IMG/VR virus record: IMGVR_UViG_2914150438_000002
Coordinates: 11,170-75,169 of that record
Direction: 5' to 3' (one strand)
Origin: a virus
Taxonomy: Duplodnaviria; Caudoviricetes
Length of the DNA: 64,000 bases
Shown here piece by piece: positions 11,934 to 28,573 of the stretch (positions are counted from its first letter, which is position 1; each line of letters begins with the position of its first letter). The notes under the pieces are model-generated. The model was not told the origin of the DNA. It searched no databases and worked only from the letters and a program-made list of their open reading frames with translations. Position numbers and translations under genes: made by a program.

Positions 11934-12087
11934 TGCAGGGTGGTCTAACGGTAAGACGCAAGGTTGACTCGCCTTTGCATACGCAAAGCGTCTCGCCCTT
12001 CGGGTCTTTTGCCTTTGGCAAAATCTCATTCGCGCTTTGCTTGAATTCATAACCTTGAGATTGGCGGTTCGAGTCCGCTCCCTGCAC
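11934..12087 (+). tRNA. tRNA-Met(CAT)-like gene (Met/fMet/Ile2 unresolved) interrupted by an 82-nt insertion in the anticodon loop
   Basis: Removing the insert gives a 72-nt cloverleaf: acceptor TGCAGGG/CCCTGCA, D stem GTCT/AGAC, anticodon arm CAAGG-TTCATAA-CCTTG, T arm GGCGG-TTCGAGT-CCGCT. No encoded CCA. Confidence 0.85.
11964..12047. repeat. Multi-hairpin mini-element, copy 1 (inside the tRNA)
   Basis: TT-GACTCGC...TCTCGCCCTTCGGGTC...TCTCATTCGC...TTGAA-TT, shared with copies at 13904 and 28472. Confidence 0.9.
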
Positions 12088-12093
12088 GCATAA

Positions 12094-12417
12094 CTACTTT
12101 TTGACAGCTTTATAAACGTACACAAAATTGCTTTCTACTTTTTCTGCAAAAGATTCTTGTAATGAGGTAGCAATTTTCGCTGGTTTTAAATCATCTGCAT
12201 GTATTGAGAACCCATGTTCTTCTAGTTTCTTTTCTATATTCCTTGCAACTTCTTCATCTGAACACCTCCAATACTTAAAGTGTTTACATGTTATCCCCTT
12301 TTCTCTTTCATGTTCGCTTTTCCTTCTATCGGGATCGTTTGATATTCCAGCATACCAATGATGATTCGTCTGGAAATTAGGATCAATTTGACGTACATAG
12401 TCTATTATTTTTTGCAT
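12094..12417 (-). CDS. AT-rich accessory gene, GIY-YIG-like nuclease fold
   Basis: WYAGISNDPDRRKSEH resembles the GIY-YIG Y-x-G...R motif; opposite orientation and AT-rich relative to the flanking genes. Confidence 0.5.
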   Translation of the reverse strand: MQKIIDYVRQIDPNFQTNHHWYAGISNDPDRRKSEHEREKGITCKHFKYWRCSDEEVARNIEKKLEEHGFSIHADDLKPAKIATSLQESFAEKVESNFVYVYKAVKK

Positions 12418-12576
12418 AATTAACAAACCTTCTAGCTTTTTTAAGATTTTAACCATAGATTCAAGTTTAAAAATTTAACATCTGAATGCAAGTATTTTTT
12501 AAGGAATCTATTAACCAACGACATACGGCAGGGACGTTCGGCAGACCCGTTTCTTCTTGCGAATGGCATTTTTGAA

Positions 12577-12679
12577 AAGTTCCACATAAAAGTATAAATG
12601 AGACCCGCAAACCCTCTATTTTGCTAAGATTGGGGGGCTTTTTTATAAGTGGAACTTTGGTGGAACTTATGTGGAACTT
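12577..12679. promoter_or_regulatory. GTGGAACTT repeats upstream of terS; candidate cos/pac terminase-binding region
   Basis: GTGGAACTT at 12649, 12660 and 12671 (11-bp period) plus an inverted copy at 12577-12585. Confidence 0.6.
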
Positions 12680-12700
12680 TTGACAACTTCCGCTTTTTAT

Positions 12701-13315
12701 ATGGAAGAAAACATCGGACAAAAGATATTAAGCAAAGACCTTGAAAATATAGTAAAAAAGGTCGCTTCGGGAAAGACTCTTACGAGTACGGAACGCGCCA
12801 TAGTGGAAAAGGCTTATGGCCAAAAAGAAGAATCTGTGAAGTATGCCGAAACTACAACCGAGCTTGCGGATATTCTCGGTGTAGCAAGACAGACCATAAA
12901 TAAATGGCGAAAAATAAAAGGTTCTCCCAAACCTTATTCTAACGGCAAGCACAGTGTGTCAAAGTGGCGGGATTTTGTAAGAAAACACGATTTAAAAGAG
13001 TCGGACTCTCCCGAAGACGAGGAGTTAAAGACCCGCAAGCTATTGGCGGAGGTAAAGCAAGCGGAAATCAAACTCAAGGTAATGGAAGGAACGTATGTTG
13101 CCATTGAGAAGGTTCGCGAAGTATGGACTGCCCATATAGGACAAGTACGGCAAATCTTGGAAAGCAGATTTTTAAACGAGCTTCCGCCAATTCTTACAAC
13201 CCTCGATGCCGTACAAATTCGGGAGAAATTGCAGGAGGTACTCGACGAGACTTACAAGGCAATCTCTATCGCCGCAGACTCGATAAAAGAGCCTGTGGAG
13301 GTCGAGGATTCTTAG
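12701..13315 (+). CDS. terS: Terminase small subunit (lambda Nu1-like)
   Basis: wHTH TTTELADILGVARQTINKWRK, then coiled coil RKLLAEVKQAEIKLKVMEGTYV, as in Nu1-type proteins. Confidence 0.75.
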   Translation: MEENIGQKILSKDLENIVKKVASGKTLTSTERAIVEKAYGQKEESVKYAETTTELADILGVARQTINKWRKIKGSPKPYSNGKHSVSKWRDFVRKHDLKESDSPEDEELKTRKLLAEVKQAEIKLKVMEGTYVAIEKVREVWTAHIGQVRQILESRFLNELPPILTTLDAVQIREKLQEVLDETYKAISIAADSIKEPVEVEDS

Positions 13316-13599
13316 TAGTCCTCTGGAAAAAGCAGAGTGGTTGCGCTTCTGTCCCACTCGGTTATTATCCAAATCCTTCTGCCATCTGGGAGTTTGTATT
13401 CGGAGAGCAGCCTTTCGCCGTTTTTGAGAGCCTCATCATTGCTCTTCCAGTCTTCCTTGCATACATCGCCCCAATCTCCATTTGCGTAGCGGATAAGATA
13501 AGGAAGCATTGAAAATCCCTTCTTTTCGCAGTAGTTTGCAAGCGTCGTGGTTGCAACTACCCGCCCGAAGTCGAATTTGCTTTCTATTATTGTTTCCAT
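13312..13599 (-). CDS. Conserved small phage/plasmid hypothetical protein
   Basis: GDWGDV...NDEALKNGERLLSEY...IWIITEWDRSATTLLFPEDY is a recurrent mobile-element family signature. Confidence 0.8.
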   Translation of the reverse strand: METIIESKFDFGRVVATTTLANYCEKKGFSMLPYLIRYANGDWGDVCKEDWKSNDEALKNGERLLSEYKLPDGRRIWIITEWDRSATTLLFPEDY

Positions 13600-13600
13600 A

Positions 13601-14356
13601 TTATGCCTTTATTGCTTGGTTAATTTGAAGTGTTGCGCCTTTCTCTCTCCCCGCACGGTAAGATGTTGCGTCCATTCTCGTACCCTGCCTTCTCCGTGAT
13701 TCTCCTATCACTCTGAAAGTGTTTTTGATATAAACCTCCAGCTCATGTTCATTGTTTGATAAGGCCAGTTCATAGTTTTGGCGGGATTCTTCCCCCTCTC
13801 CAGAAAGCGTATCTTTTTCGGCTTGCTCCATTCGCTCGTATATTCCGCACCTAAGCCCGAAGTAGTAATCTGCCTTGTTTGGCCTAAAGCAGGTATTTTT
13901 AAATTGACTCGCGTGCTTCGCACCGTCTCGCCCTTCGGGTCTTTCGGCTTGCGCCGAAATCTCATTCGCACTTCGTTTGAATTCATTCCAACATTTGAAG
14001 AATACGTTTCTTAGATAGCCGTGGACGTATTTTGCGATTTCAATATTTTCGGAAGTCCCAATAACCACCATTCCAGAATTTCCGTTATATAAGATTTTCA
14101 CCTTGTAAAACCTGCAAAGTATTGCGGTTATTTCCGTGTCGGCAGGATTGAGAACCGCCCTTGAGAAGAAGTATTCGTGTTTTATCTTTGATGCGGGAGT
14201 ATCGTTTTCGATATTCGCCATAGTGATATTGTATTTTGTCATAAGCCGTTGAGCCATTTCCATTGCTCTTTCGGCTTCCGCCTTACTTGCTCCCTTATCC
14301 TTGGAGAGAGTTAGAAGCTTTTGTATTCGTTTTAGGATTGATTTTTCAGTGTCCAT
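13601..14356 (-). CDS. DUF2786-domain protein carrying a 26-aa in-frame mini-element insertion
   Basis: ILKRIQKLLTLS...EAERAMEMAQRLMTKYNI is the DUF2786 pattern; residues KRSANEISAQAERPEGRDGAKHASQF derive from the repeat copy at 13904-13983. Confidence 0.8.
   Translation of the reverse strand: MDTEKSILKRIQKLLTLSKDKGASKAEAERAMEMAQRLMTKYNITMANIENDTPASKIKHEYFFSRAVLNPADTEITAILCRFYKVKILYNGNSGMVVIGTSENIEIAKYVHGYLRNVFFKCWNEFKRSANEISAQAERPEGRDGAKHASQFKNTCFRPNKADYYFGLRCGIYERMEQAEKDTLSGEGEESRQNYELALSNNEHELEVYIKNTFRVIGESRRRQGTRMDATSYRAGREKGATLQINQAIKA
13904..13983. repeat. Multi-hairpin mini-element, copy 3 (in frame inside a CDS)
   Basis: Same GACTCGC / TCTCGCCCTTCGGGTC / TCTCATTCGC / TTGAATT frame with different but still pairing stems; net +78 nt. 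Confidence 0.88.
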
Positions 14357-14366
14357 ATTCTGCTAT

Positions 14367-14648
14367 TTATAATTCCCAAGTGGCTATTATTACGTTTCCG
14401 CATTCATCTATGCGGGGAGAAGTTTTAAAAAATTCTTCGGTTATGTTGTTTAAAGTCATCTGGAGGTTTTGGTCTCGCTCGGTATTGGAGTCGAAGTACG
14501 AAATATCCAAATTTAGATTTGTATTTAATGTCCAAGCCTTGCCATAGAGCACGTCGTTGTGAACATTCTCCAATCCGTAATGTTCCAAAACTTGTATCGC
14601 CATAGCGTGTTCAGCTTTCCAGAATTGTATTTTTAGTTTCTTATTCAT
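14367..14648 (-). CDS. Hypothetical protein
   Basis: 93-aa ORF with AAGGA ribosome-binding site; first gene of a leftward three-gene block. Confidence 0.6.
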   Translation of the reverse strand: MNKKLKIQFWKAEHAMAIQVLEHYGLENVHNDVLYGKAWTLNTNLNLDISYFDSNTERDQNLQMTLNNITEEFFKTSPRIDECGNVIIATWEL

Positions 14649-14688
14649 ATTTTGTCCTTTAGGTGTTTATCGTTCTTCTATGTCATTG

Positions 14689-14717
14689 ATATTAACACAC
14701 TTGGATAATATTTGCAA
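14689..14717 (-). promoter_or_regulatory. Putative sigma70 promoter for the leftward block
   Basis: Minus-strand TTGCAA-N17-TAATAT. Confidence 0.4.
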
Positions 14718-14982
14718 TGTTTTTCTTTGGTTTTTTATGAAAAAAAGATAAAAAATAATCTTGAAATTTCCGTACAGAACACCTTCGCAAAATGATACCT
14801 TTCAACCTATTGCAAGTGGCTGCATTCACCCATTTTCTGCGAGGTGTTAGCACAAAAAATGCAAGAAAAATCGTAATATTTTTGAATAATAAAAACGAAA
14901 AAAACCTAATATAAATGTTGCAGATTTTATCGAATTATGGTAATATAAACGACATAGGAGAACCAAAATAAAAGGAAAAAAA

Positions 14983-15540
14983 ATGAAAACTATAACAATA
15001 ACAGAAGAACAGGTCAAACAATACAAATTACCCGCCAAAGCTGTGGGCGATTGGTCAATCGTTGAAAAAGGCGATGGATACAGTCTCCTACACCGTTTAA
15101 AAAAGGACGGGACTTTGGGTAGTGATAGACCTAATAATAAAATCAAAATAGACTCGGAAGTTTTAAATAAGCTCTCCGCTTCGGATACAAAGGCAATAAC
15201 AGGAAAGACTGAAAACGGAGAAACTGTTGTAATAGCCAAGACCAAGCATATTGATAACGAGCCTAAAGCCGATAAGCCGACCGAGAGCAACGTTGCAATG
15301 GGTGATGAAGAAATGGCCATAGGCACCCGAAAATCGAGGTGGATAGCGCAACTTGTGGAGCAAATGAAGACGGAACCGTTTACCGCAGGATTGCTTGAGA
15401 AAATGGGAGATTCTGAATTTGTGAAGCAGGTTCTTGAGGATACAAATCCAGAACGCCAAGGTGGAAAAGCTTATAGCTCGATAAGTTCGGCTATGAGAGT
15501 ATGGAATAACCGCATAAGGAGGGGTGAATATGCCTACTAA
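14983..15540 (+). CDS. Hypothetical protein
   Basis: 185-aa ORF with AAGGA ribosome-binding site after an AT-rich intergenic region. Confidence 0.65.
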   Translation: MKTITITEEQVKQYKLPAKAVGDWSIVEKGDGYSLLHRLKKDGTLGSDRPNNKIKIDSEVLNKLSASDTKAITGKTENGETVVIAKTKHIDNEPKADKPTESNVAMGDEEMAIGTRKSRWIAQLVEQMKTEPFTAGLLEKMGDSEFVKQVLEDTNPERQGGKAYSSISSAMRVWNNRIRRGEYAY

Positions 15541-15880
15541 TAAATTCTACCACATACTCTGTACAAGCGGAGACAAGGTGGTTTACGAAGGTAGGTTTCA
15601 ATGCGTTTCGCGTTCGGCGGCAATGAAACTTCTAAGGGAGAAGGTAGGCCGCCAGAACCTCTATGGCTTAATTTACACAGTGACGGAAATCCCGATAGAG
15701 GTTTTAAGGGAGATAGTTGATGCGCTAATAAAAAAGAAACCGATAACCGAAGGCGATATATGTTCCTATAAGGAGACGCCGACTATAAGCCCTACATATG
15801 CAAAGATAAACTCCTATAAGCGTAATCCAAATAAGCCCCAAGGAGTAAACGGAGTAAAACGCAGACTGGGAGATTTCTAA
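15530..15880 (+). CDS. Hypothetical protein
   Basis: ORF with GGAGG ribosome-binding site, coupled to both neighbours. Confidence 0.6.
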   Translation: MPTNKFYHILCTSGDKVVYEGRFQCVSRSAAMKLLREKVGRQNLYGLIYTVTEIPIEVLREIVDALIKKKPITEGDICSYKETPTISPTYAKINSYKRNPNKPQGVNGVKRRLGDF

Positions 15881-16302
15881 TGATATACCTGCTTGACCTA
15901 AATTATACGCTCGTGGACAAGGAAAAGGACGCACCAAGAATTCGTCCTATGGAACTTCAAATAGAGCTTGAGACCTACCGCCAATGGCTGATTGATATGT
16001 TAAAAGGTAAATATGTGATTCTCACTACGGCACGAATGCAAAAATACGAGATATTTACCCTAAATCGAATATACACTAAGACGAATTGGCTGCCCAATGA
16101 GAGCTTTTTTTCTATCTTTAGGCATTTGCCTCACATAAAAAAGGAGTGGATACTGAAATGGCGAATATTTCCAAAACACGGAAATAATCCCGAACAATTC
16201 TTCGCAATAGAGAGCAATCCCAAAACCAGAGCTATGTACGCCAAGTATGGGATAAAATCGGCTCCCGCGATAGACGATTTCGGCAACAGAATTTCAATAT
16301 AG
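15880..16302 (+). CDS. HAD-fold (PNK 3'-phosphatase-like) protein, paralog 1
   Basis: DLNYTL (motif I variant), TTAR (II), IKKE (III), IESN (IV variant). Confidence 0.65.
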   Translation: MIYLLDLNYTLVDKEKDAPRIRPMELQIELETYRQWLIDMLKGKYVILTTARMQKYEIFTLNRIYTKTNWLPNESFFSIFRHLPHIKKEWILKWRIFPKHGNNPEQFFAIESNPKTRAMYAKYGIKSAPAIDDFGNRISI

Positions 16303-16327
16303 GATTTTGACAAAATAGTCTGTCTAT

Positions 16328-16969
16328 ATGGCAGACGAAAATAAGGCACGAATTTTAGCGGACGGAATTGAAGTATGGTGCGCATACGATAAGCTCGTAA
16401 AAGTTGAAGAACTTATCCCGCACCCAAAAAATCCGAATACGCACCCGCAGAATCAGATTAAAATCCTTGCGCAGAACATACGTTATCACGGTTGGCGACA
16501 CTCGATTGTAGTTTCAAAGCTAAGCGGTTATATTGTGGCGGGGCATGGTCGCTTGGAAGCGGCAAGAGAACTTGGCGTTAGTATAGTGCCGGTCGAATAT
16601 CAAGACTTTGCCACCGAAGATAACGAGCTTGCAGTACTTGTGGGAGACAATCGACTTGCAGAGCTTTCCACGCTCGATTTAAACGGCTTGCAAGATATTA
16701 TAGACGGATTCAAGGAAACAAATTTTGACACAATTCTTGCGGGCTTTGAGCCGACAGACCTTGACGCCCTTTTGGGCGAACAAAAGCCCGATTTTGGGGA
16801 CGAAAAAGAAAAGGAGCTGTCGCAGTCGGAAGTAACGATTCAGGCGGGAAACTACCGCTTCAGAATGTCGCAGGAAGACTTCGGCATTTGGATAGACAAG
16901 CTCAAGCAGGAAGTAGGCTTCGACAAGGAAGCGGTAATCGCTGAAATCCGCAGGAGACTTGCAATATGA
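16328..16969 (+). CDS. ParB/Srx N-terminal domain protein
   Basis: LIPHPKNPNTH...GWRHSIVV...IVAGHGRLEAA...GDNR. Confidence 0.85.
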   Translation: MADENKARILADGIEVWCAYDKLVKVEELIPHPKNPNTHPQNQIKILAQNIRYHGWRHSIVVSKLSGYIVAGHGRLEAARELGVSIVPVEYQDFATEDNELAVLVGDNRLAELSTLDLNGLQDIIDGFKETNFDTILAGFEPTDLDALLGEQKPDFGDEKEKELSQSEVTIQAGNYRFRMSQEDFGIWIDKLKQEVGFDKEAVIAEIRRRLAI

Positions 16970-18477
16970 TAAAGATTGAACCGATTTCCGCCGTAAATCC
17001 CTCAACCTACAATCCGAGAACCGCAGACCCGAAGCGGCTCAATTTGATAGAACTTTCACTCCGCAAGCTCGGCTTTATCGCTCCGATTTATGCCGACGCC
17101 AACGGAGAAATCCTCTCAGGGCACCAGAGGCATTTTGTAGCAACTCGAATGGGATTAAAGAATGTGCCTGTCTTTAGAATTCCCGCAATGGAATTACAAA
17201 AGCGCAAAGCTTTGAACATCGTATTTAATCGGGCTACAAATGACGGAGATATTTGCCAAACACCTTTAAAGGCTAAGCGCATACTGGAAACTCTAAATCT
17301 TTCGGAACTCGCCAATAGTATTTCAGATAAGGAGTTGGAAAGCAAAGAGTTCTTCCGTTGCGCTTATCCTTGCAAGGTGTCTGTAGCTAAACTTTGCAAA
17401 ATAAATTCTGGGAGGTGGATTCAATATGCAAAGAGCATTGCAAGAACTCTGCGCAAGGCGGGAATTATCATGCCTATCGTTTGCACACCCGACGAAAAGG
17501 TTATAAATGGCATAGGCAGACTTGAAATGCTTGCGGAATTAAAAGCCGATACGTGCGAAGTAGTTTATATATCGGAAGATGAAGCAAAGTTTGCAGATGC
17601 TATGATGAATCTGCTGACAATGGATTTTAATATCCACGAGAGATATGAAGACTTGCTAAGGTATAACTCGTTTCGACGAGCCCGCAGAGTCCGCGAGGAA
17701 TTGGGACACGGATTTGTATTCGCCGTTCACGGAAAGAATCCTTGCCACACCTTTGATATATTTAACCCCGCGCAACAGGCTAAATGGAGAAAAGAGCACG
17801 GAAATACAGTTCTTGATTTCGGCGCAGGACACCTTACTGAGACGAATATATTAAATGCCGCAGGATTTGATTGTACCCCTTTTGAACCCTATCATATCGG
17901 AGTTTCGGAGATAGACAAAGGTAAGTCTTTGGAAATCTCAAAGAAGTTTTTAGAGGTTGTGGCAAGCGGTAAGGAGTTTGCGAGCGTATTTATTTCGAGC
18001 GTGCTTAATTCCGTGCCTTTTGCGAAGGATAGAGAGCATATCGTTTGTATTTGCGCTGCCTTGTGTAGGCCATTTACAAAGCTTTACGCTTGCGCCTCAA
18101 GCACATCGGAAACTGGATATAGGCAAGTAAATGGCAAAGCCTTCCACAATGAAAGCAATGCGGGAAATATAGCCTTTCGCTTAGAATATGAGTCAGGCAT
18201 TCGTATTGGAGACTTTCAAGACAAGCCAAAGGTCCAAAAATACCACACTAAAAAGGAATTTTACGACTTGTTTTATCAGTTTTTTAGGAATGTAAAAATA
18301 TCGGAGATGAGCGGCAATGTCTGCGCAAAGTGCGAAAACGTTAGGCGCATTCCGTGGGAACGCATAGAGGAAGCCTTGCGTTTTGAGTTTGACTTGCCTT
18401 ACCCTGACGGTAGCCGTATGGGATTGGTTGAGGAAGCAATCACCGCATTTAAACGTCGCTATGAAATATTTGGTTGA
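16966..18477 (+). CDS. Tandem ParB-like domains fused to a class I SAM methyltransferase
   Basis: YNPR...ILSGHQR and VINGIGRL (two ParB-like cores); VLDFGAG (SAM motif I); SVLNSVPF. Confidence 0.75.
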   Translation: MIKIEPISAVNPSTYNPRTADPKRLNLIELSLRKLGFIAPIYADANGEILSGHQRHFVATRMGLKNVPVFRIPAMELQKRKALNIVFNRATNDGDICQTPLKAKRILETLNLSELANSISDKELESKEFFRCAYPCKVSVAKLCKINSGRWIQYAKSIARTLRKAGIIMPIVCTPDEKVINGIGRLEMLAELKADTCEVVYISEDEAKFADAMMNLLTMDFNIHERYEDLLRYNSFRRARRVREELGHGFVFAVHGKNPCHTFDIFNPAQQAKWRKEHGNTVLDFGAGHLTETNILNAAGFDCTPFEPYHIGVSEIDKGKSLEISKKFLEVVASGKEFASVFISSVLNSVPFAKDREHIVCICAALCRPFTKLYACASSTSETGYRQVNGKAFHNESNAGNIAFRLEYESGIRIGDFQDKPKVQKYHTKKEFYDLFYQFFRNVKISEMSGNVCAKCENVRRIPWERIEEALRFEFDLPYPDGSRMGLVEEAITAFKRRYEIFG

Positions 18478-18880
18478 TCTGAACTACACGCTTGTGGGCA
18501 ACTCCCCCAAATGGGGAGAGCCGCGCATTACGCCGTTTTCAAGGCAGATTGAGCAGGAGACATATCGCCAGTGGCTTGTGGACTTTCTGAGGGACAAGTA
18601 CGCAATTCTCATTACGGCACGTCCTGCCCGATATAGAGAACAAACCCTTGAAAGGATATTGTCGCAGACTGGTTGGCAACCGCAGGAAGCTTATTTCGCT
18701 GAAATTTCCGCACCGCCGCCAGAAATCAAGGAACATCTGCTTTTAAATTACATTTTCCCGAAACACGGCAGAAATGGCGATGATTTCTTCGGGATAGAAA
18801 GTAATCCAAAAACAAGGGATATGTACGCTTATTATGATATTAAGTCTTTAAATGCGGAAGCCTTTAAAATGGCAATCTGA
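18461..18880 (+). CDS. HAD-fold (PNK 3'-phosphatase-like) protein, paralog 2
   Basis: DLNYTL, ETYRQWL, ITAR, IFPKHG and IESNPKTR are all shared with 15880-16302. Confidence 0.65.
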   Translation: MKYLVDLNYTLVGNSPKWGEPRITPFSRQIEQETYRQWLVDFLRDKYAILITARPARYREQTLERILSQTGWQPQEAYFAEISAPPPEIKEHLLLNYIFPKHGRNGDDFFGIESNPKTRDMYAYYDIKSLNAEAFKMAI

Positions 18881-18915
18881 TGATAATTAGTTTTTTTGAC
18901 ACCTTGTCGTCTTGT

Positions 18916-21392: not shown

Positions 21393-21413
21393 TTTGACAT
21401 TCGCCAATTTAAT

Positions 21414-21671: not shown

Positions 21672-23104
21672 ATTTCCGCCGAAAAATCGCCAATTTGTTT
21701 TATGGGATTGGGCACGCCTTTGAAGCGGCAAAAATCTCTCCGTCCCGTGGCAATCCCAACACCACAAATCCGACAGACGCAAAATACGAGCTTACTTCAT
21801 ACACGAGAAGCGAACTTGTCCGAAAAGCCCGCTATCTTGAGAAAAATTCTGGGCAGATTCGGGGAATTTTGCGCGACCTGAAAGTTTACGGAATTGGCAA
21901 AGGGATTTACCCGAACGCCAAAAGCGGCAACCACGCTTGGGATAAGCAAGCGGAAGACTTCTTTTTCAGGTGGAGTCGGCATTGCGACATCACAAACCGC
22001 TTTTCTTGGAGAGAGTGTCAGGCGATGATACTCCGCGCCCTGATTATCGACGGTGAGGTTTTCGTGATAAAGACGTTCAATGCGTTCAATGTCCCGAAAA
22101 TCCAGATAATCGAAAGCCACCGCCTTATGTCTCCCGAAACTGAAAGCAGTCCTTTCATATCGGACGGAATTGAATTTGACCGCTACGGCAGACCCAAAGC
22201 CTACTACTTTATCATTGGCGAAAACAGAGAGACAACGAGAGTTCCCGCTTCTGCGGTAATTCATATTTTCGACCCAGAGCGTGTCTCGCAAGCAAGAGCA
22301 TATCCGCACATTCAGCACTCGATAAACGACGTCATCGACCGTAAGGAAATCCTAGCCTTGGAGAAAAAGAAGGTAAAGGCAATTTCCGACATCGTCCATA
22401 TCCTGAAAGGCGGTCAGGGAATGAGTCTCGACGGCGATTACAGGGTGGACGTCGGCAACCGACCTGAGGGAACGTCAACGGAGGCGTTAAACCAAATTCT
22501 GGGCGGAAAGAATATCCGCATAGACCCCGATGAAAGCATAGATGTTCACGAAAGCAATATTCCCTCTCCGACATTTTCTGGATTTTTGACGGAACTCGAC
22601 CGTTCGGGAAGTCTCGGCATTTTGCCTTATGAATTTCTTATAGACCCGTCGAAAATCGGCGGAGCGTCTGTAAGGCTTATCGCCTCAAAGACGCAACGCT
22701 ACATTGACGATATGACACAGCTAATCGACGACCGTTTTAACGACGCCGTATGGTTCTTCGTAATCGGTTGGGCAATAGACAGCGGGATATTGCCGCTTCA
22801 GAACTGGTGGTGGTACGCCACTTGGACACACCCCAGAAAGCTGACAGTTGACGCAGGGCGCGAGGAACAGCAAAACCGAGCAAACGTTGAAATGGGCTTA
22901 AAAACGCTCGAAGAAAGCTATTCCGAATGCGGCTTGGACTTCGAGGACGAAATGCGCACAAGAGCCGACAACGCAAGGTTCATTATGCGCTTGGCGGGAA
23001 TTCCCGACAGCGAGCCAATACCGCTTTATATGCTCTACAAGGTTAACGGAACTCAGGTTATCGAAAATAGGAAAATAGGAGAAAAAGGTAATGATGACGA
23101 ATAA
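21668..23104 (+). CDS. Portal protein (lambda gpB family)
   Basis: RKARYLEKN, IIDGEVF, DGIEFDRYGRPKAY, HIFDPERVSQARAYP; size and position fit. Confidence 0.9.
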   Translation: MNFRRKIANLFYGIGHAFEAAKISPSRGNPNTTNPTDAKYELTSYTRSELVRKARYLEKNSGQIRGILRDLKVYGIGKGIYPNAKSGNHAWDKQAEDFFFRWSRHCDITNRFSWRECQAMILRALIIDGEVFVIKTFNAFNVPKIQIIESHRLMSPETESSPFISDGIEFDRYGRPKAYYFIIGENRETTRVPASAVIHIFDPERVSQARAYPHIQHSINDVIDRKEILALEKKKVKAISDIVHILKGGQGMSLDGDYRVDVGNRPEGTSTEALNQILGGKNIRIDPDESIDVHESNIPSPTFSGFLTELDRSGSLGILPYEFLIDPSKIGGASVRLIASKTQRYIDDMTQLIDDRFNDAVWFFVIGWAIDSGILPLQNWWWYATWTHPRKLTVDAGREEQQNRANVEMGLKTLEESYSECGLDFEDEMRTRADNARFIMRLAGIPDSEPIPLYMLYKVNGTQVIENRKIGEKGNDDE

Positions 23105-23918
23105 CATTTTTTTAAACGGAATTTGCAGACCGTGGAATATACACGCAGGTACATTTCTTGCGTTGTCGCTAAGGGTATTGGCTGACGCAAAAGGCGCGGA
23201 CTCGCTTTCTGGGTGGCGCGAGAAGTTTTCGCAGTTCGTGCCACAACGCCAAAGTATGGCAATAGACCCTAACGGGATTGCCCATATCTCCATTCACGGA
23301 ACGCTTTTCAACAAGGAAGCCCCTTATTTTGTGGCGGGCTATGGCGGCACGGATTATGAGGAAGTCCTGCAAGACATAGCGGTGGCATCAAAGGAAGCCA
23401 AAGGGATATTCCTAACGGTTGATTCTGGCGGCGGGCACGCTTGCGGGAATGACAAAGTGGCAAAAGCAATATCGCAATGCCCCAAGCCTGTGTTCGCCTA
23501 TACGGACGGAATGTGCTGCTCGGCGGCATACGCGATAGCAAGCGGAGCGTCGTATATCTGCGCTTCCGCAGACGCCACTGTCGGGAGTATAGGAACTATT
23601 TTGCCGCTAATGGACGTTTCGGGATTGTGGCAAGCATTGGGCGTAAAGCCTGACTACATTACAAACAAGGAAGGCACGCTCAAAACCGCAGGATACCCGC
23701 CGAGCCAAAACGACGACGAAAGAGCCGCTTTACAGGCGGAGACTCAATCGTACTTCGAGCTGTTTAAATCACACGTTCTGGCGCACAGAAACATCGAAAA
23801 AGAGGATATGCGGGGTCAGGCTTTCGTAGGCGCAGAGGCGTTTAGACGGGGGCTTGTTGACGATATTTGCGACAAAAATTCCGCCTACGACAAATTAAGA
23901 ATTTTGACACGGGGATAA
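23091..23918 (+). CDS. Prohead protease, peptidase S49 (gpC/SppA-like)
   Basis: DSGGG, CSAAYAIAS, GSIG and GLVDDI motifs. Confidence 0.9.
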   Translation: MMTNNIFLNGICRPWNIHAGTFLALSLRVLADAKGADSLSGWREKFSQFVPQRQSMAIDPNGIAHISIHGTLFNKEAPYFVAGYGGTDYEEVLQDIAVASKEAKGIFLTVDSGGGHACGNDKVAKAISQCPKPVFAYTDGMCCSAAYAIASGASYICASADATVGSIGTILPLMDVSGLWQALGVKPDYITNKEGTLKTAGYPPSQNDDERAALQAETQSYFELFKSHVLAHRNIEKEDMRGQAFVGAEAFRRGLVDDICDKNSAYDKLRILTRG

Positions 23919-23925
23919 AAAGTAT

Positions 23926-24312
23926 ATGGACGAAACCAATAAAGAAAAAACTCTTGCCGAAGCCATTTCGCAAATCGAAACGCTCACGGCGGACAAAACA
24001 AAGCTCGATTCCGATTTGGCAACCGCTTCTTCGCGCATTGCCGAACTCGAAAGCGAACTTAACGAGACTCGGGAGAAATTGACGGCTCTTGAACAAAAAC
24101 ACCGAGACATCGACAAAGAAGTCTCTTTAAAAGTTGCCGAGATTGCGGCTCAAAGTGGGGTTTCTCCCATTGAGGCAGATGCAAACGGCGGCGAGGAGGA
24201 AAGCCTTGAAGAACTCGCAAAACGCATTGACGAGGCGCAAGGCGTAGAAAAAGCAAAGCTCATTGAATCTAACTACGACCGCATAATGTCGGCGTTGAAA
24301 GGAGTTTACTAA
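23926..24312 (+). CDS. Probable capsid scaffolding protein
   Basis: Acidic coiled-coil ORF between protease and capsid. Confidence 0.55.
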   Translation: MDETNKEKTLAEAISQIETLTADKTKLDSDLATASSRIAELESELNETREKLTALEQKHRDIDKEVSLKVAEIAAQSGVSPIEADANGGEEESLEELAKRIDEAQGVEKAKLIESNYDRIMSALKGVY

Positions 24313-25206
24313 GTGAACACTATACCATCAGCATTAAGGCGTTCGCTAATCCTCAAGTCCGCGATGGAAGCATTCAAACATAAGCTTATTTCGTTGGGTT
24401 TGTTCTCCACTGTGTTGCGCAATGTGCCGCTTGAAGGAAACAACGAAATAGACATTCCGTATATTCCGCTTGCGACGAGTGCTTCAAAGGACTTTGACGG
24501 CACCTACAAGTTTGACAAGGGAGATATGGAGTCCCGCAAAATAACGGTTAATAGACGCAAGTACCAGTCATTGACCTACACTTCCGAGGAGAAGGCAAGG
24601 CAGCCCTATTTCGACCCAATTACTTTGGGGAGACTAAAGGGAGCCAAGCTTGCCGAGGACGTTCTTTTGGACATTTTAAGTGTCATCACTAAGGAGAATT
24701 TCGGAGACGCAATTCTTACACGAAACGCCGCCGATTTCGACACAGACGACATAATAGACCTTGAGACGAAGATTGACGAACTCGAATGGCCAGACAGTCC
24801 CCGAGGAATGCTTCTGAAATCGTCCTATATGGCGAATGTTAAGAAGGACATAAAGACTTCGGGAGGGCTTTCGACATTTGGATTCTCGCCTTTGGGAGAA
24901 CTTCCCAATCTTATGGGCTTTTCGTTCTCCAAGTTTAACCGCTTGCCCGACAATGGCGAAAAGTTGCAGGGGTTCATTGTCTATCCGTCAGCAATAATGG
25001 TAGCTCTTGCTCCGATTGCGCCGACGGCAAATGTGATGAAGCAACTGTCAACCTATACGACCTACACTGACCCGCAGACTGGGCTCACTTTTGAATATCG
25101 AGCTTGGGGCGACGCAGACACCGACGCTTCAAAAGAGATTATCGAGTGCAACTATGGGTTCGGCGTTGGCGAAAAGGCGGCACTCAAACGTATCGTATCT
25201 GAATAA
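24313..25206 (+). CDS. Major capsid protein (HK97 fold inferred)
   Basis: 297 aa, located after protease and scaffold; beta-rich P-domain-like C-terminus (ECNYGFGV). Confidence 0.75.
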   Translation: MNTIPSALRRSLILKSAMEAFKHKLISLGLFSTVLRNVPLEGNNEIDIPYIPLATSASKDFDGTYKFDKGDMESRKITVNRRKYQSLTYTSEEKARQPYFDPITLGRLKGAKLAEDVLLDILSVITKENFGDAILTRNAADFDTDDIIDLETKIDELEWPDSPRGMLLKSSYMANVKKDIKTSGGLSTFGFSPLGELPNLMGFSFSKFNRLPDNGEKLQGFIVYPSAIMVALAPIAPTANVMKQLSTYTTYTDPQTGLTFEYRAWGDADTDASKEIIECNYGFGVGEKAALKRIVSE

Positions 25207-25207
25207 G

Positions 25208-25432
25208 ATGAACGCATTTATTACGATAGGGTACAAGAAAAACGGCAAGTCGGAGATTCTTTTGAGTCCCGACGAGCCTTACGCCAAACATAGGCAACTG
25301 TTTAAAACCCTAACAGGAGACTATACAGACGTCGAAGTTTGGTCTCGCGCTATGGGTAAAATCAAACAGCGCAAAGTCAAAACTTCAAAAGTTGCCAAAG
25401 TTTCAAAAACTTCAAAAGAATCAAAGGAGTAA
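25208..25432 (+). CDS. Hypothetical head-associated protein
   Basis: Short basic ORF coupled to the capsid stop codon. Confidence 0.55.
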   Translation: MNAFITIGYKKNGKSEILLSPDEPYAKHRQLFKTLTGDYTDVEVWSRAMGKIKQRKVKTSKVAKVSKTSKESKE

Positions 25433-25435
25433 GAA

Positions 25436-25684
25436 ATGGGAGAAAACGACATTTTAAGAATCAGACCCGAACATACGCACGGGGGCGGTTTGCAGATTTG
25501 CGACGACGGCTCCGACGGAACCGTACAAAAGCTCGGCTTCTTCGGAGTTGCGCCCACAGTGCAGAGGGCAAATGCAAATCAGGCCAAGCTTGAAGACTCG
25601 GCGCAACTTGCGCAAGTGATTGTGCTTGTCAACGAGCTTAGAGAAGCCCTCGTAGAAAAAGGACTGATAAAGGGTTCGGCTTAG
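25436..25684 (+). CDS. Small head decoration/fibre-like protein
   Basis: QKLGFFGVAP...VNELREALVEKGLIKG pattern recurrent downstream of capsid genes. Confidence 0.5.
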   Translation: MGENDILRIRPEHTHGGGLQICDDGSDGTVQKLGFFGVAPTVQRANANQAKLEDSAQLAQVIVLVNELREALVEKGLIKGSA

Positions 25685-25707
25685 GATTGGGTTGTTTCGT
25701 ATTCACT

Positions 25708-25740
25708 GGGAGCTTTCGGGAGACTGGAAGCTCCCTTTTT
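25708..25740 (+). terminator. Rho-independent terminator after the head genes
   Basis: GGGAGCTT-N12-AAGCTCCC followed by TTTTT. Confidence 0.75.
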
Positions 25741-25763
25741 ATTATTGATAAGCATTATACTTT

Positions 25764-26927
25764 ATGAAATATATTTTTAGTATGACATTAGAAGAATACA
25801 GAGATAGTTTAATCAAATTAAGACAGAAATTTTTAAAAGAAGAATCTACGCTTGGGACGGCATCGTCTTCATCAGCTTACTCAAAAGTTATTGATGAAAT
25901 CTTAGATTTTATCAATGAAAGAGCTCACCATAGAATATCAGAAATTAGAAATACTAAAATCGAAAATCCCATACGAATTGGAGATTCTTTTGACCTGCGT
26001 GAAAATATAATTAGGAACAATCGGAATGAAACATCCGTAGAAGAAAATTTACCATCGTATATCAAGGAAACATTTAATAGGGAAAAACTCTTAGCTCTAA
26101 TTGATGATGAAATATTTTTATCATCTCCCATAAAAGAAAAAAAAGAATTAGCTATAAGAAAGATCATAGAAGCAAGGAATTTAAATAACGAATTTTCCTA
26201 TGAGTTAGCTAAAATATTCTGTGGAGATAATCCTAATTTTTTATATAGATCGAGCTCAAATATAACTTCTTTTTTTAAAGAAGCTGGCTTTAATTTTGTC
26301 CATGATGGGAGTACACGTTCAAGGTGGATTGAAGGTAAAATAAAAGAAATTTCCGCAAAAGATATATATGGAAAATGTTTCACCAGATTATTCAAGACAC
26401 GAGATTTTGAGGCATTGTCGAAGAATTTAAATAAAAGTTTTGACGATTGTGTAACGATTGCAAAATATGAAATAAAAAATTTATTAGATAAAAGCCTCAC
26501 TTGGGATAATACAATAGATTTCTCAGATGTAATTGGGCTAAATGTAAAAACGGATCTACTGTTTAATAAAAAATCAAAGACAACTGATATTACTTTGAAT
26601 GATTTAATAGATTCTTCAAAAGATTTTTTTGTTCAAGGCGACTATCAAACTGCTATCGAGAAATTATGGGACGCATTAGAAAGATGTAAGACACTATTAG
26701 ACAACGATAAGAAAAAATCGGTAAAAATGATAATTGAAAAATTATCAGGAGAAATGGAATATTCATTCTTTGACAATGAACTTAAAACTTTGACCGATAT
26801 AGGAAACAAATATCAAATTCGTCATTTTGAAAAAGATAAAAAACCGATAGAAGATTTTATGACAAAAGAATATCTTTATTTTAGATTATTATCATTGATA
26901 GATTTCATATTATCAAAAATATCTTAA
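25764..26927 (+). CDS. AT-rich accessory gene, AbiJ-like abortive-infection candidate
   Basis: YRSSSNITSFFKEAGFNFVHDGSTRSRW (AbiJ N-terminal-domain-like) and AIEKLWDALER...GNKYQIRHFE (HEPN-like C-terminus). Confidence 0.6.
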   Translation: MKYIFSMTLEEYRDSLIKLRQKFLKEESTLGTASSSSAYSKVIDEILDFINERAHHRISEIRNTKIENPIRIGDSFDLRENIIRNNRNETSVEENLPSYIKETFNREKLLALIDDEIFLSSPIKEKKELAIRKIIEARNLNNEFSYELAKIFCGDNPNFLYRSSSNITSFFKEAGFNFVHDGSTRSRWIEGKIKEISAKDIYGKCFTRLFKTRDFEALSKNLNKSFDDCVTIAKYEIKNLLDKSLTWDNTIDFSDVIGLNVKTDLLFNKKSKTTDITLNDLIDSSKDFFVQGDYQTAIEKLWDALERCKTLLDNDKKKSVKMIIEKLSGEMEYSFFDNELKTLTDIGNKYQIRHFEKDKKPIEDFMTKEYLYFRLLSLIDFILSKIS

Positions 26928-26949
26928 TTTTGACATAGCCCATATTCCT

Positions 26950-27267
26950 ATGGGCTTTTTTAGTGAAATCAGAACCGCATTAAATGAAATCTTTGCCGAA
27001 TTTTCGCAGGACGTTCAATTTAGAGGCAAGACATACAAGTGCATAATTGGCGAGAATGGTCAGCAGGAAGTAGAACTCGAATCGGGCGGGTTTGTGCCTA
27101 ACGAAACTTTTACCGTAAAGTTCAAAGAAGCGGATTTAGAAGATGAGGCATATCCTTCCATAGGAGAATTGCTCCAATATTCTGGCAGGATTTTTCGCAT
27201 ACATTGGATAAGTACACGCTCAAAACGAGGACAAATAGAAGTATGGGTAAGGAGTGTAGATAAATGA
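26950..27267 (+). CDS. Head-tail adaptor/closure-like protein
   Basis: 105-aa beta-rich ORF at the start of the neck/tail block. Confidence 0.55.
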   Translation: MGFFSEIRTALNEIFAEFSQDVQFRGKTYKCIIGENGQQEVELESGGFVPNETFTVKFKEADLEDEAYPSIGELLQYSGRIFRIHWISTRSKRGQIEVWVRSVDK

Positions 27268-27269
27268 AC

Positions 27270-27326
27270 GGAAGTTCCGCTTCCATTGAAGGGCTACGCC
27301 CTTACGCGATTGCTTCGCAATAACGC
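27270..27326. repeat. Intergenic triple-hairpin element
   Basis: GGAAG-TTCCG-CTTCC, AAGGGC-TAC-GCCCTT and ATTGC-TTC-GCAAT in tandem. Confidence 0.55.
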
Positions 27327-27335
27327 TATCCCACC

Positions 27336-28070
27336 ATGAAGTTTGAAGTTATTACCAAGAATTTCGAGGACGCACTTGTACAATACAAAGTAGCTTGCCA
27401 GAGGGATTGGCAATTTGTCGTAAAGCAGCAATCTCGCATTGTTGGAGAAAAGCTAATAAAATTTACGCCGCCAAAGACAGCTTCAATCGGCAAGCGAAAT
27501 GTAGCCCGAGACATAGGCAAGGTATTTGCGGATTTAAGCGGCACAACTTGGGAAGATAAATCACTCAATAAAATGTGGAGAGCGGGCAATTTTGAAGGAG
27601 TAAAAAAGGCACTTGAGAGCCACCCGAACAAATCCGAAATGCCCATATTTAGATATAAGCGAATATTTAAATCTCCCGTAAGAAACATTCATAAAGCGGC
27701 AATAAATAAGAGCGGGAGAGTTCCGAAGAATTGGACTACTCAATATGCTGTTGCGGGGAAAGGAGAGCTTAAAAAGTACACGAGAAAGGCACAACTTCAG
27801 GTGGGAGTTGCCAAATCTGGCTGGCTTGCGGCTCTTACAAAGTTGGGAGGAAAGTCCCAGAGCTTTGTGACTCGCCACGGCACTAAGTATGGTGGATTCG
27901 TAGATGGAAATAGAGGAGATAATCCATTCTTTACTCTCATAAATCGGGTAACGACATTCCCGCAAGGAGGAACACCCATGAGAATTTTAAAGCGGGCCTT
28001 TCGGGTACAGACAAAGGCGATGGAAAACAATATTAAGCGAATTTTAAGCAAGAGAGGAAGAAATTTTTAG
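27336..28070 (+). CDS. Neck/tail completion protein (basic)
   Basis: Lys/Arg-rich 244-aa ORF in the neck position. Confidence 0.55.
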   Translation: MKFEVITKNFEDALVQYKVACQRDWQFVVKQQSRIVGEKLIKFTPPKTASIGKRNVARDIGKVFADLSGTTWEDKSLNKMWRAGNFEGVKKALESHPNKSEMPIFRYKRIFKSPVRNIHKAAINKSGRVPKNWTTQYAVAGKGELKKYTRKAQLQVGVAKSGWLAALTKLGGKSQSFVTRHGTKYGGFVDGNRGDNPFFTLINRVTTFPQGGTPMRILKRAFRVQTKAMENNIKRILSKRGRNF

Positions 28071-28071
28071 C

Positions 28072-28470
28072 ATGAGAAAGGAAATTGAGGATATACTATT
28101 TGAATACCTGCTAAGCGCATTGCCAGAAGCAATGAAGCCGATGCTTGTAAAGGGACACAGCACGGAAGACAGGCATATACCGTACATTTCACTCGATGTT
28201 GGAGATGTAAGACCGTTTTCAGATATGTTGGAATCCGACGGGATATTTGAGTCTGAAGTAAATGTGGCAATAGCGGATTCAGCCCACGATATAAACTATG
28301 ATGCCCAATTTTTGCGCATAGCACAGATACGCAGTATTCTTGGGAATTTTACATTGGATAACGAGAAGTATCGTTGTGAAGGATTGTGGTTTGAGGCGGA
28401 AAACGACGCCAGAGACGATAATAATTTGGGTACAGTCCTAACGTATAAGCTCGTATTTCAAACCTTATGA
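28072..28470 (+). CDS. Tail terminator-like protein
   Basis: Acidic 132-aa ORF immediately before the tail tube gene. Confidence 0.5.
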   Translation: MRKEIEDILFEYLLSALPEAMKPMLVKGHSTEDRHIPYISLDVGDVRPFSDMLESDGIFESEVNVAIADSAHDINYDAQFLRIAQIRSILGNFTLDNEKYRCEGLWFEAENDARDDNNLGTVLTYKLVFQTL

Positions 28471-28471
28471 A

Positions 28472-28554
28472 TTGACTCGCCTTTGCATACGCAAAGCGTC
28501 TCGCCCTTCGGGTCTTTTGCCTTCGCAAAATCTCATTCGCGCTTCGCTTGAATT
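28472..28554. repeat. Multi-hairpin mini-element, copy 2 (intergenic)
   Basis: Near-identical to 11964-12047; lies between the stop at 28470 and the TTGACA motif of the tail tube gene. Confidence 0.9.
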
Positions 28555-28573
28555 TGACACGCCTATATTTTGT

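What the first reader, a model, noticed from the sequence alone, without database searches (positions are those of the whole stretch)
11934..28554. Three-copy ~80-bp multi-hairpin mini-element with compensatory stem changes
Copies at 11964-12047, 13904-13983 and 28472-28554 share invariant linkers (GACTCGC, TCTCGCCCTTCGGGTC, TCTCATTCGC, TTGAA) and TT on both flanks. Their stems differ in sequence but still pair. Stem 1: CTTTGC-ATAC-GCAAAG vs GTGC-TTC-GCAC. Stem 3: TTTTGCC-TTT-GGCAAAA vs TTTTGC-CTTC-GCAAAA vs TTTCGGC-TTGC-GCCGAAA. Removing each copy plus one TT restores a sensible empty site (intact tRNA loop, uninterrupted codons, stop followed by a TTTGACA motif), so these are insertions. On the minus strand the element ends in TCAA, like IS608/ISDra2 right ends, which hints at HUH (Y1/RAYT)-type mobilisation; no such transposase is in the window. 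It behaves like a non-autonomous structured selfish element, comparable to Rickettsia palindromic elements.
Basis: partly seen in the sequence, partly recalled or inferred. Interest (0 to 1): 0.85.

Follow-up and report, generated by a model that had tools for sequence, protein, structure and literature searches.

The report
Four-hairpin mini mobile element in prophage
The three ~80-base repeats are real copies of a small, folded, selfish DNA element that is spread through one family of gut Opitutales bacteria and their phages, inserts by replacing two target bases, and has no recognisable transposase, so how it moves is an open question.

Summary
Observation confirmed. All three copies sit at the stated coordinates. 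One splits a tRNA(CAT) anticodon loop, one adds 26 residues in frame to a DUF2786 protein, and one lies between genes.

The window is a prophage in a 2.7-Mb gut Opitutales genome. A covariance model finds the element in 28 of 46 genomes of that bacterial family, with up to 89 copies per genome. It was not found in 143 genomes of 40 other Opitutales families.

On 62 distinct copies, 18 of 28 pairs show compensatory changes.

Empty sites exist as DNA: in about 30 ISL3 copies of the same genome, in a distant protein homolog, and in chicken-gut metagenome contigs. It is therefore a DNA insertion, not an intron.

New points:
- The element, terminal TTs included, replaces a pyrimidine dinucleotide (CT, TC or TT) after an A-run. 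There is no target duplication.
- Read on the minus strand, the hairpin loops are C(GNA)G DNA mini-hairpins, which points to a folded single-stranded DNA form.

The HUH/RAYT idea fails: no Y1 transposase in any of the 46 genomes, and no IS110, TnpB or reverse transcriptase in the high-copy genomes. The mobilising enzyme is unknown.

This scan has noted similar base-replacing hairpin inserts before, in other Opitutales DNA.

The parts
11964..12047 (+). Copy 1 (84 nt including both terminal TTs), inside the anticodon loop of a tRNA(CAT)
   Evidence: 109.5 bits. An empty allele is seen in metagenome contigs that join 11963 to 12047 with a single C between.
11934..12087 (+). Interrupted tRNA(CAT) gene; halves at 11934-11963 and 12048-12087
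   Evidence: Rfam RF00005 at 46.7 bits; ARAGORN finds none. The same interrupted tRNA scores 40.4 and 31.6 bits in related prophages, with broken acceptor pairs.
13904..13983 (+). Copy 2 (80 nt; net gain 78 nt, or 26 codons), antisense to its host gene and read through in frame
   Evidence: A 48%-identical homolog lacks exactly these 26 residues. A DNA contig skips 78 nt at 13897-13976.
13601..14356 (-). Host gene of copy 2: DUF2786 + DUF7168 protein (phrog_421), 251 aa including the 26-aa insert FKRSANEISAQAERPEGRDGAKHASQ
28472..28554 (+). Copy 3 (83 nt), intergenic: it lies after the stop of ORF 28072-28470 and before the TTGACA motif and ATG 28574 of the next gene
   Evidence: 102.3 bits. 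The same site is filled in IMG/VR relatives L029 and L032. In prophage 2 of the same genome the site holds a different ~690-nt insert.

Best explanation
The three copies belong to a lineage-specific family of small (about 77-97 nt), non-autonomous mobile DNA elements of one family of gut Opitutales (Verrucomicrobiota) and their prophages. Each element is a string of four short hairpins joined by conserved linkers. It moves as DNA. Shown: presence/absence polymorphism at several sites, and insertion without target duplication, in which the element with a TT at each end takes the place of a pyrimidine dinucleotide (CT, TC or TT) that follows an A-rich run and precedes C/G. Because the element's own end recreates this target (..GAA-TT-GAC..), it can insert next to itself, which would explain the head-to-tail arrays. 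Inferred: the form that matters is folded single-stranded DNA of the minus strand, whose hairpins carry C(GNA)G mini-hairpin loops, and it is handled in trans by an enzyme not yet identified. In this prophage the copies are passengers. One inactivates a tRNA(CAT). One survives in a gene only because it is in frame and stop-free. One sits harmlessly between genes.
For: Family and spread: model R1 finds it in 28 of 46 genomes of the bacterial family, in all 4 genera, with up to 89 copies. It was found in 0 of 143 genomes of 40 other Opitutales families. Structure: 18 of 28 pairs show compensatory change, and 91.7% of cells pair against 75.2% in shuffles. Empty sites: about 30 ISL3 copies in the window's own genome are empty, while other genomes carry the element inside the same transposase codons. 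A DUF2786 homolog lacks exactly the 26 aa. Contigs from a DNA library and from RNA libraries carry the uninterrupted tRNA, and a DNA contig skips the 78 nt of copy 2. Replacement of two bases: CT in the tRNA; CT in a nested insertion and TC in a repeat-nest site. Target logo from 33 flank classes: A at positions -3 to -1 in 16, 20 and 21 of 33, and C/G at +1 in 28 of 33. Tandem array of nine 79-nt units in the same genome. Minus-strand folding: at least 112 of 168 triloops are GNA when read on the minus strand against 4 on the plus strand, mostly with a C-G closing pair, and the exact GCGAAGC motif is present. Stem mismatches are A.C 18 against G.T about 4 on the plus strand. d(GNA) loops closed by C-G are exceptionally stable in DNA and much less so in RNA (PMC13037366, PMC3201870). 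Not RNA splicing: the empty form occurs in a DNA run; genic copies are antisense and in frame; the interrupted tRNA decays in related prophages; there is no Rfam match.
Against: No mobilising enzyme was found, so transposition itself is inferred from polymorphism, not observed. The strand assignment rests on loop types and about 20 mismatches that are not all independent, and an invariant G.T in stem 4 on the plus strand argues the other way. Nearest-neighbour folding energies do not separate the strands (z about -2 for both). Copy 1 is identical (0 of 84) in three lineages whose tRNA halves differ at 3-6 of 70 positions. That could mean selection on the element in place, that is a function for the phage, rather than pure selfishness.
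Confidence: 0.67

Rival explanations
1. It is an IS200/IS605-type or REP/RAYT-type element, cut and pasted as single-stranded DNA by a Y1 HUH transposase.
For: It has subterminal hairpins and a likely single-strand folded form. On the minus strand the last hairpin is followed by 9 nt ending in TCAA, a geometry like the IS608 right end (sequence; IS608 layout from my own knowledge).
Against: PF01797 (Y1_Tnp, which also covers RAYTs) was found in 0 of 46 genomes of the bacterial family, including the genome with 89 copies, while 6 control genomes rang. There is no TnpB. Two target bases are replaced, unlike IS200/IS605 insertion 3' of a fixed tetra- or pentanucleotide. There is no GTAG or CGTC tag in the REP layout (PMC3733652).
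Confidence: 0.06
2. It acts at the RNA level, either as a tiny self-splicing or processed intron that restores the tRNA and mRNAs, or as a structured regulatory RNA such as a terminator or stabiliser spread by selection.
For: The linkers are conserved and the stems covary, as in functional RNAs. Contigs lacking the element occur in three RNA libraries. Sense-orientation copies (tRNA, ISL3 gene) are not multiples of three, while antisense genic copies are. Intergenic copies favour gene 3' ends: 24 in convergent regions against 4 in divergent ones. Copy 1 is better conserved than the tRNA around it.
Against: The same joined form is present in a DNA run, so it is an allele. There is no Rfam family even at E up to 10. 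No terminator-like or promoter-like site is found at copy 3. The loops are the DNA-stable GNA type on the opposite strand. Co-directional intergenic copies show no clear orientation bias, 15 sense against 9 antisense. The interrupted tRNA accumulates acceptor-stem mismatches.
Confidence: 0.07
3. It is a functional single-strand DNA signal used by the phage or host, such as a primase or single-strand initiation site or a hairpin promoter of the kind built on GNA mini-hairpins. On this reading it is kept by selection, and mobility is secondary.
For: GNA mini-hairpins are known at phage G4 priming sites, at RSF1010 ssiA and at phage N4 virion-RNA-polymerase promoters (PMC13037366). The prophage encodes a primase-helicase upstream. 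Copy 1 is identical in three lineages.
Against: Copies land inside a tRNA loop, a transposase gene, an integrase gene and a DUF2786 gene, and pile up in repeat nests and tandem arrays. That is the behaviour of selfish DNA rather than of placed signals. Sites are polymorphic in nature.
Confidence: 0.1
4. It integrates by a site-specific recombinase (small serine or tyrosine type) that recombines the junction of a circular or tandem donor (GAA-TT-GAC) with look-alike sites (AAA-YY-S).
For: The target logo resembles the element's own junction. Head-to-tail arrays share the TT. A ~200-aa serine recombinase is present in 17 of 28 carrier genomes against 5 of 18 non-carriers.
Against: The association is weak and confounded by mobile-element load. 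One high-copy genome (22 copies, 87% complete) lacks the recombinase. A 2-bp crossover would leave the target dinucleotide at one junction, but both junctions read TT at the CT and TC targets. The element has no inverted or direct binding-site pairs typical of such systems.
Confidence: 0.1

Closest known systems
Rickettsia palindromic elements (RPEs; Ogata et al. 2000, 2002, as summarised in PMC10969869)
   Same: Both are small hairpin-forming repeats with no linked transposase. Both are found between genes and, read through in frame, inside protein-coding genes, where they add a conserved peptide.
   Different: Sequence, host phylum and size are unrelated (about 80 nt here against about 100-150 nt). 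This element has four separate mini-hairpins rather than one long palindrome. It is also found in a tRNA loop, in prophages and in tandem arrays, and its insertion replaces two bases.
REP / BIME / REPIN elements with RAYT transposases, and CGTC-tagged REPs that lack a dedicated transposase (PMC3733652, PMC3116915)
   Same: Both are lineage-specific hairpin repeats with tens of copies. Both are enriched between convergent and co-directional genes, are sometimes intragenic, and are clustered in mosaics with other repeat modules. Single-strand folding probably matters for both.
   Different: There is no GTAG or CGTC tag in the REP position and no RAYT in any of the 46 genomes. The unit is a fixed string of four hairpins, not a single 20-40-bp palindrome or an inverted pair.
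Small dispersed repeats (SDR) of Nostoc (Elhai et al. 2008, Genome Res 18:1484; paper not held, cited via PMC3116915 and from memory), and the tiny base-replacing hairpin inserts this scan noted earlier in other Opitutales
   Same: All are very small mobile repeats with no known enzyme. They insert into other repeats and mobile elements and show clean filled and empty sites. The earlier scan notes also describe replacement of two target bases rather than duplication.
   Different: Those elements are 21-45 nt with one hairpin. This one is about 80 nt with four hairpins and conserved linkers. Sequence relatedness between them was not tested.
Classical MITEs (for example Correia and RUP; PMC10969869)
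   Same: Both are short, non-coding, non-autonomous and multi-copy, and both can disrupt or fuse to genes.
   Different: This element has no terminal inverted repeats and no target-site duplication, and no parent insertion sequence shares its ends. The abundant ISL3 element of these genomes has unrelated ends.
Mini-hairpin DNA d(GCGNAGC) and d(C-GNA-G) loops (PMC13037366, PMC3201870)
   Same: Read on the minus strand, most loops of all four hairpins are GNA closed by C-G, and the exact GCGAAGC motif is present.
   Different: That is a structural motif, not a mobile-element family. Its known natural uses are priming sites and phage N4 promoters, not transposition.

Membership tests
IS200/IS605-derived MITE or REP/REPIN (HUH Y1 / RAYT mobilised) | A Y1 HUH transposase or RAYT gene in genomes where the repeat proliferates | tested here: not met
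   PF01797 found in 0 of 46 genomes of the bacterial family; 6 control genomes ring.
IS200/IS605-derived MITE or REP/REPIN (HUH Y1 / RAYT mobilised) | Insertion 3' of a fixed tetra- or pentanucleotide with no gain or loss of target bases | tested here: not met
   A CT, TC or TT dinucleotide is replaced by the element with a TT at each end.
IS200/IS605-derived MITE or REP/REPIN (HUH Y1 / RAYT mobilised) | Subterminal hairpins that fold in single-stranded DNA | tested here: met
   Covariation and GNA loops on the minus strand. Folding as single-stranded DNA in vivo is inferred.
REP (GTAG- or CGTC-tagged) | A single 20-40-bp palindrome with an unpaired GTAG or CGTC tag at one end | tested here: not met
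   The unit has four hairpins. CGTC occurs only 3' of hairpin 1, and its G covaries as a base pair (CG:45, UA:13). Layout compared with PMC3733652.
Classical MITE | Terminal inverted repeats | tested here: not met
   The ends TTGACTCGC and GCTTGAATT are not inverted copies of each other.
Classical MITE | Target-site duplication | tested here: not met
   Three informative empty sites (CT, CT, TC) show replacement, not duplication.
Classical MITE | A parent insertion sequence with the same ends | tested here: not met
   All left-end matches pair with right ends within one short unit. Shared flanks are repeat nests without genes. The ISL3 ends are unrelated.
Rickettsia palindromic elements | In-frame, read-through insertion in protein-coding genes that adds a conserved peptide | tested here: met
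   Seen in the DUF2786 gene (78 nt) and in a tyrosine integrase gene in three genera (81 nt), with the same frame and the same peptide start (E/Q)FKRSANEIS.
Rickettsia palindromic elements | Membership of the RPE sequence families of Rickettsia | not tested
   No RPE sequences were compared. Host phylum and architecture differ, so this is a functional analogy only.
Self-splicing intron or self-cleaving ribozyme | Match to a known catalytic RNA family | tested here: not met
   No Rfam 15 match to the element at gathering threshold or at E up to 10.
Self-splicing intron or self-cleaving ribozyme | The joined (element-free) form exists only as RNA | tested here: not met
   The joined tRNA form and the 78-nt skip are present in a DNA run. 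All runs were laid as contigs, so low-level splicing cannot be excluded.
Retroelement | A reverse transcriptase in genomes where it proliferates | tested here: not met
   PF00078 found in 0 of 5 high-copy genomes; controls ring.
IS110 / bridge-RNA or TnpB-linked element | A DEDD transposase or TnpB gene present | tested here: not met
   PF01548 and PF07282 found in 0 of 5 genomes searched (four high-copy genomes plus the window's own), with controls ringing. PF04986 (Y2) also gave 0 of 5 but had no positive control.

The most novel reading that the evidence does not exclude
This is one member of a so far undescribed class of mobile DNA. The class would consist of nuclease-resistant strings of GNA mini-hairpins that move as folded single strands without any known transposase family. 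They would integrate by substituting a pyrimidine dinucleotide in an AAA-YY-S context, perhaps by direct incorporation of the strand at a replication fork, with its terminal Ts pairing to A or G. They would repeatedly home into the same sites, such as a tRNA anticodon loop. The smaller base-replacing hairpin inserts seen earlier in other Opitutales would then be products of the same machinery.
Probability: 0.3. Interest if true: 0.85.

Novelty: new variant of a known kind. Interest (0 to 1): 0.6.

Why it matters
Small hairpin repeats without a transposase (RPEs, CGTC-REPs, SDRs) are a long-standing loose end in bacterial genomics, because nobody knows how they move.

This family offers unusually clean material for that question:
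- a compact, well-defined structure with strong covariation;
- several exact filled and empty site pairs;
- a simple insertion rule (two pyrimidines replaced, A-rich left flank);
- a likely active strand;
- genomes ranging from 0 to 89 copies within one genus;
- at least one cultured relative that carries it.

That makes the mobilising activity findable by comparative genomics and testable at the bench. It also shows phages acting as carriers of host repeats, and new protein sequence arising from such insertions.

Tried and rejected
- A megablast of 18 kb of the window against 50,697 phage records found nothing.
- Exact empty-site patterns for the tRNA and for the DUF2786 gene were not found in the 46 representative genomes. 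The empty alleles turned up in metagenome contigs and in a distant homolog instead.
- Searches for Y1, IS110, TnpB, Y2 and reverse transcriptase were all negative. The Y2 search had no positive control.
- The ISL3 transposase was rejected as mobiliser because its inverted repeats are unrelated to the element ends.
- The GIY-YIG-like ORF next to copy 1 was rejected because it is unique to this prophage and sits beside no other copy.
- The small serine recombinase shows only a weak association with carriage.
- A search for an autonomous longer version found only gene-less repeat nests.
- Folding energies (RNA and DNA parameters, both strands) give z of about -1 to -2.3 and do not pick a strand.
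- No sigma-70 promoter-like or terminator-like site was found at copy 3.
- The Elhai 2008 paper could not be read.
- No structure prediction of the DUF2786 protein was run, so the claim that the 26-aa insert sits in a surface loop was not tested.
Full report
**1. Observation**

The 17-nt core occurs three times against 0.05 expected by chance.

- Copy 1 splits a tRNA. Rfam still aligns the tRNA across the gap (RF00005, 46.7 bits, 11934-12087), while ARAGORN calls no tRNA.
- Copy 2 lies in ORF 13601-14356(-), which encodes a DUF2786 + DUF7168 protein (phrog_421). Its net length is 78 nt, so the frame reads through and gains 26 residues.
- Copy 3 begins 2 nt after the stop of ORF 28072-28470 and ends just before a TTGACA motif and the ATG at 28574.

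**2. Where it lives**

The window is G000:C1:956905-1020904 of a 2.70-Mb, 56% GC genome in three contigs. The surrounding genes are phage genes, including a primase-helicase and a small terminase, so this is a prophage.

Record titles of genomes carrying the element name gut Opitutales: Intestinicryptomonas porci, Candidatus Merdousia, and many uncultured Opitutales. Runs holding this stretch are mostly chicken-gut metagenomes.

A second, related prophage in the same genome, near 1.51 Mb, carries the same tRNA and DUF2786 insertions.

A covariance model built from 15 distinct copies gives this distribution:
- It finds the element in 28 of 46 genomes of the bacterial family, in all four genera, with 89, 32, 22, 21 and 12 copies in the richest genomes.
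- It finds none in 143 sampled genomes of 40 other Opitutales families.
- A pattern for the 5' module hits 13 of 34 genomes of this family against 1 of 366 others.

G000 itself has 14 matches. Five are the prophage copies. Nine form a head-to-tail array of 79-nt units at C1:87747-88459, between convergent genes.

**3. Structure**

On 62 distinct copies aligned to the model, I counted a structure of four hairpins plus an outer extension of hairpin 1 that was not in the model:
- 91.7% of cells form standard pairs, against 75.2% in shuffles and 31-51% when partners are slid.
- 244 cells carry changes on both sides, against 71 in shuffles.
- 18 of 28 pairs show compensatory change.

Examples of compensatory change:
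- Hairpin 1: CTTTGC/GCAAAG, GTTTGC/GCAAAC, GTGC/GCAC, GGGC/GCCC, CTCAC/GTGAG, ACCCCC/GGGGG.
- Hairpin 3: TTTTGCC/GGCAAAA, TTTCGCC/GGCGAAA, TTTCGGC/GCCGAAA, GTTGC/GCAAC.
- Hairpin 4: ATTC..GAAT against AAAC..GTTT.

Part of the 'invariant linker' is in fact paired. C9-G27 becomes T-A in 13 copies. The TC/TC internal loop of the window copies becomes G-C/C-G or A-T in other subfamilies.

**4. It is a DNA insertion with real empty sites**

- *ISL3 transposase gene.* In several genomes the element sits inside an ISL3 transposase ORF. G000 has about 30 copies of that insertion sequence, one of them 92% identical, and all are uninterrupted at ..YHFMEF|CKQ...
- *DUF2786 gene.* A 48%-identical homolog in another phage contig lacks exactly the 26 residues, and the remaining sequence is colinear.
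- *Metagenome contigs.* Contigs in three RNA-library runs and in one DNA run join 11963 to 12047 with a single C between. This gives an intact tRNA with the canonical CTCATAA loop. A DNA contig also skips 78 nt at copy 2. Because the joined forms occur in a DNA run, they are alleles, not splice products.
- *tRNA decay.* The interrupted tRNA loses score and acceptor-stem pairs in related prophages (46.7, 40.4, 31.6 bits), while a more distant phage has an uninterrupted tRNA(CAU).
- *Genic copies.* Those in long ORFs (DUF2786, and a tyrosine integrase in three genera) are antisense, multiples of three, and translated in the same frame as (E/Q)FKRSANEIS... That is the expected survivor pattern for an unspliced insertion.

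**5. Insertion rule**

Where the empty sequence is known and is not TT, the target dinucleotide is replaced:
- CT in the tRNA.
- CT where one family member has inserted into hairpin 1 of another (L121 against L114).
- TC in a recurrent site within repeat nests (empty in L117, L118, L128, L132 and L148; filled in L114, L134, L136 and L139).

The ISL3 and DUF2786 targets are TT and are therefore uninformative. So the terminal TTs belong to the element, and there is no target-site duplication.

Across 33 dissimilar flank classes, positions -3 to -1 are A in 16, 20 and 21 cases, and position +1 is C or G in 28. This AAA-YY-S target resembles the junction between two tandem units (GAA-TT-GAC), which would explain the arrays.

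Copy 1 is identical (0 of 84) in three lineages whose tRNA halves differ at 3-6 of 70 positions and whose further flanks are unrelated. An empty allele with about 99% identical flanks also exists. This fits recent, recurrent insertion or homing at this site. Selection on the element in place cannot be excluded.

**6. Which strand folds**

Read on the minus strand, at least 112 of 168 triloops are GNA, against 4 on the plus strand. A further 28 are called AAG by an alternative register of the GCGAAGC motif. The closing pair is C-G in 173 of 232 hairpins.

N varies (GAA, GTA, GGA, GCA) in all four hairpins while G and A are kept. d(C-GNA-G) and d(GCGAAGC) are the 'extraordinarily stable' DNA mini-hairpins, and their RNA versions are far less stable (PMC13037366; PMC3201870).

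Stem mismatches on the plus strand are mostly A.C (18) rather than G.T (about 4). That means they are G.T wobbles on the minus strand.

Against this, an invariant G.T in hairpin 4 sits on the plus strand, and energy models do not separate the strands. I take minus-strand single-stranded DNA as the likely active form, at roughly even odds.

**7. What moves it**

- Y1/RAYT transposases are absent from all 46 genomes, with controls ringing.
- IS110 and TnpB are absent from four high-copy genomes and from G000.
- Reverse transcriptase is absent from five high-copy genomes.
- Y2 also gave nothing but lacked a positive control.
- The abundant ISL3 has unrelated ends.
- A GIY-YIG-like ORF beside copy 1 (12094-12456) is itself an indel polymorphism and is linked to no other copy.
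- A small serine recombinase is somewhat commoner in carriers (17 of 28 against 5 of 18), but this is weak evidence and is confounded by mobile-element load.
- No longer, gene-bearing version with the same ends was found.

The enzyme is unknown.

**8. Context of copies**

Intergenic copies favour convergent regions (24) and co-directional regions (15 sense, 9 antisense) over divergent ones (4), as REPs do (PMC3733652). In high-copy genomes they sit in nests with other repeat modules, and longer versions with extra hairpins exist.

**9. Comparison and verdict**

The element behaves like RPEs, transposase-less REPs and small dispersed repeats. It fails the defining tests for IS200/IS605 or RAYT elements, classical MITEs, introns and retroelements; the details are in the membership table.

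Earlier notes of this scan describe 24-45-nt hairpin inserts in other Opitutales that also replace two target bases. I took that as a lead and tested it here on this element, and it holds.

I rate it a new variant of a known kind: a real, well-characterised, lineage-specific selfish element with an unusual architecture and insertion rule, and an unidentified mobilising activity.

Noticed in passing
outside the window: G000:C1:87747-88459(-) = L110:4248-4960: A head-to-tail array of nine 79-nt units of a subfamily of the same element, ending in a stray TTGACTCGC. It lies between convergent genes, one of which has a DNA polymerase III delta (holA-like) domain. A related array lies at a contig end in another genome (G031:C3:19148-19307).
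   Followed up: partly
window 12094-12456 (-): A 120-aa ORF with a weak GIY-YIG match (E 0.004) lies 47 nt from the interrupted tRNA. About 410 nt spanning it are absent from related phages in metagenomes (contigs join 12084/12090 to 12501). No other copy exists in the genome or in the fetched loci. It looks like a free-standing homing-endonuclease-type insertion.
   Followed up: partly
outside the window: G000:C1:1496615-1497318 (prophage 2), orthologous to window 28470-28555: At the exact site of copy 3, the sister prophage carries a ~690-nt AT-rich insert with a membrane-protein-like ORF on the opposite strand. It is flanked by an 11-bp direct repeat, CCTTATGAATT.
   Followed up: no
L054:1501-2508 (G037): A toxin-antitoxin cassette (MazF/PemK-like toxin with a small antitoxin) is bracketed by ~130-bp inverted repeats that contain partial copies of the element, like a small composite mobile unit.
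   Followed up: no
G000 genome-wide; L014:1003-1815 and relatives: G000 holds about 30 copies of a 1300-bp ISL3-family insertion sequence. In other genomes an 813-bp 5'-truncated relic of a related ISL3, carrying the element, recurs with identical boundaries: three copies in one genome, and copies in three other genera.
   Followed up: partly
L158, L159, L160, L162, L163 (IMG/VR contigs from other metagenomes): A more distant repeat shares the 5' module TTGACTCGC..CGTCTCGCCCC-TAC-GGGG but continues differently and is not scored by the model. The superfamily may therefore reach beyond this bacterial family.
   Followed up: no
L114-L147 (G033, G024): Intergenic 'nests' combine this element with at least two other repeat families (units ending in ..GGTTAAAG, and AAAGCGCGAGGGCGCG..AAGCAAACGCTCTCGGGC units) and with micro-insertions such as CTCGAGCCTCGCG.
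   Followed up: no
window 28555-28576 and other late genes: TTGACA lies 14 nt upstream of the ATG at 28574. Copy 3 and its relative in L010 both sit immediately upstream of this motif.
   Followed up: no
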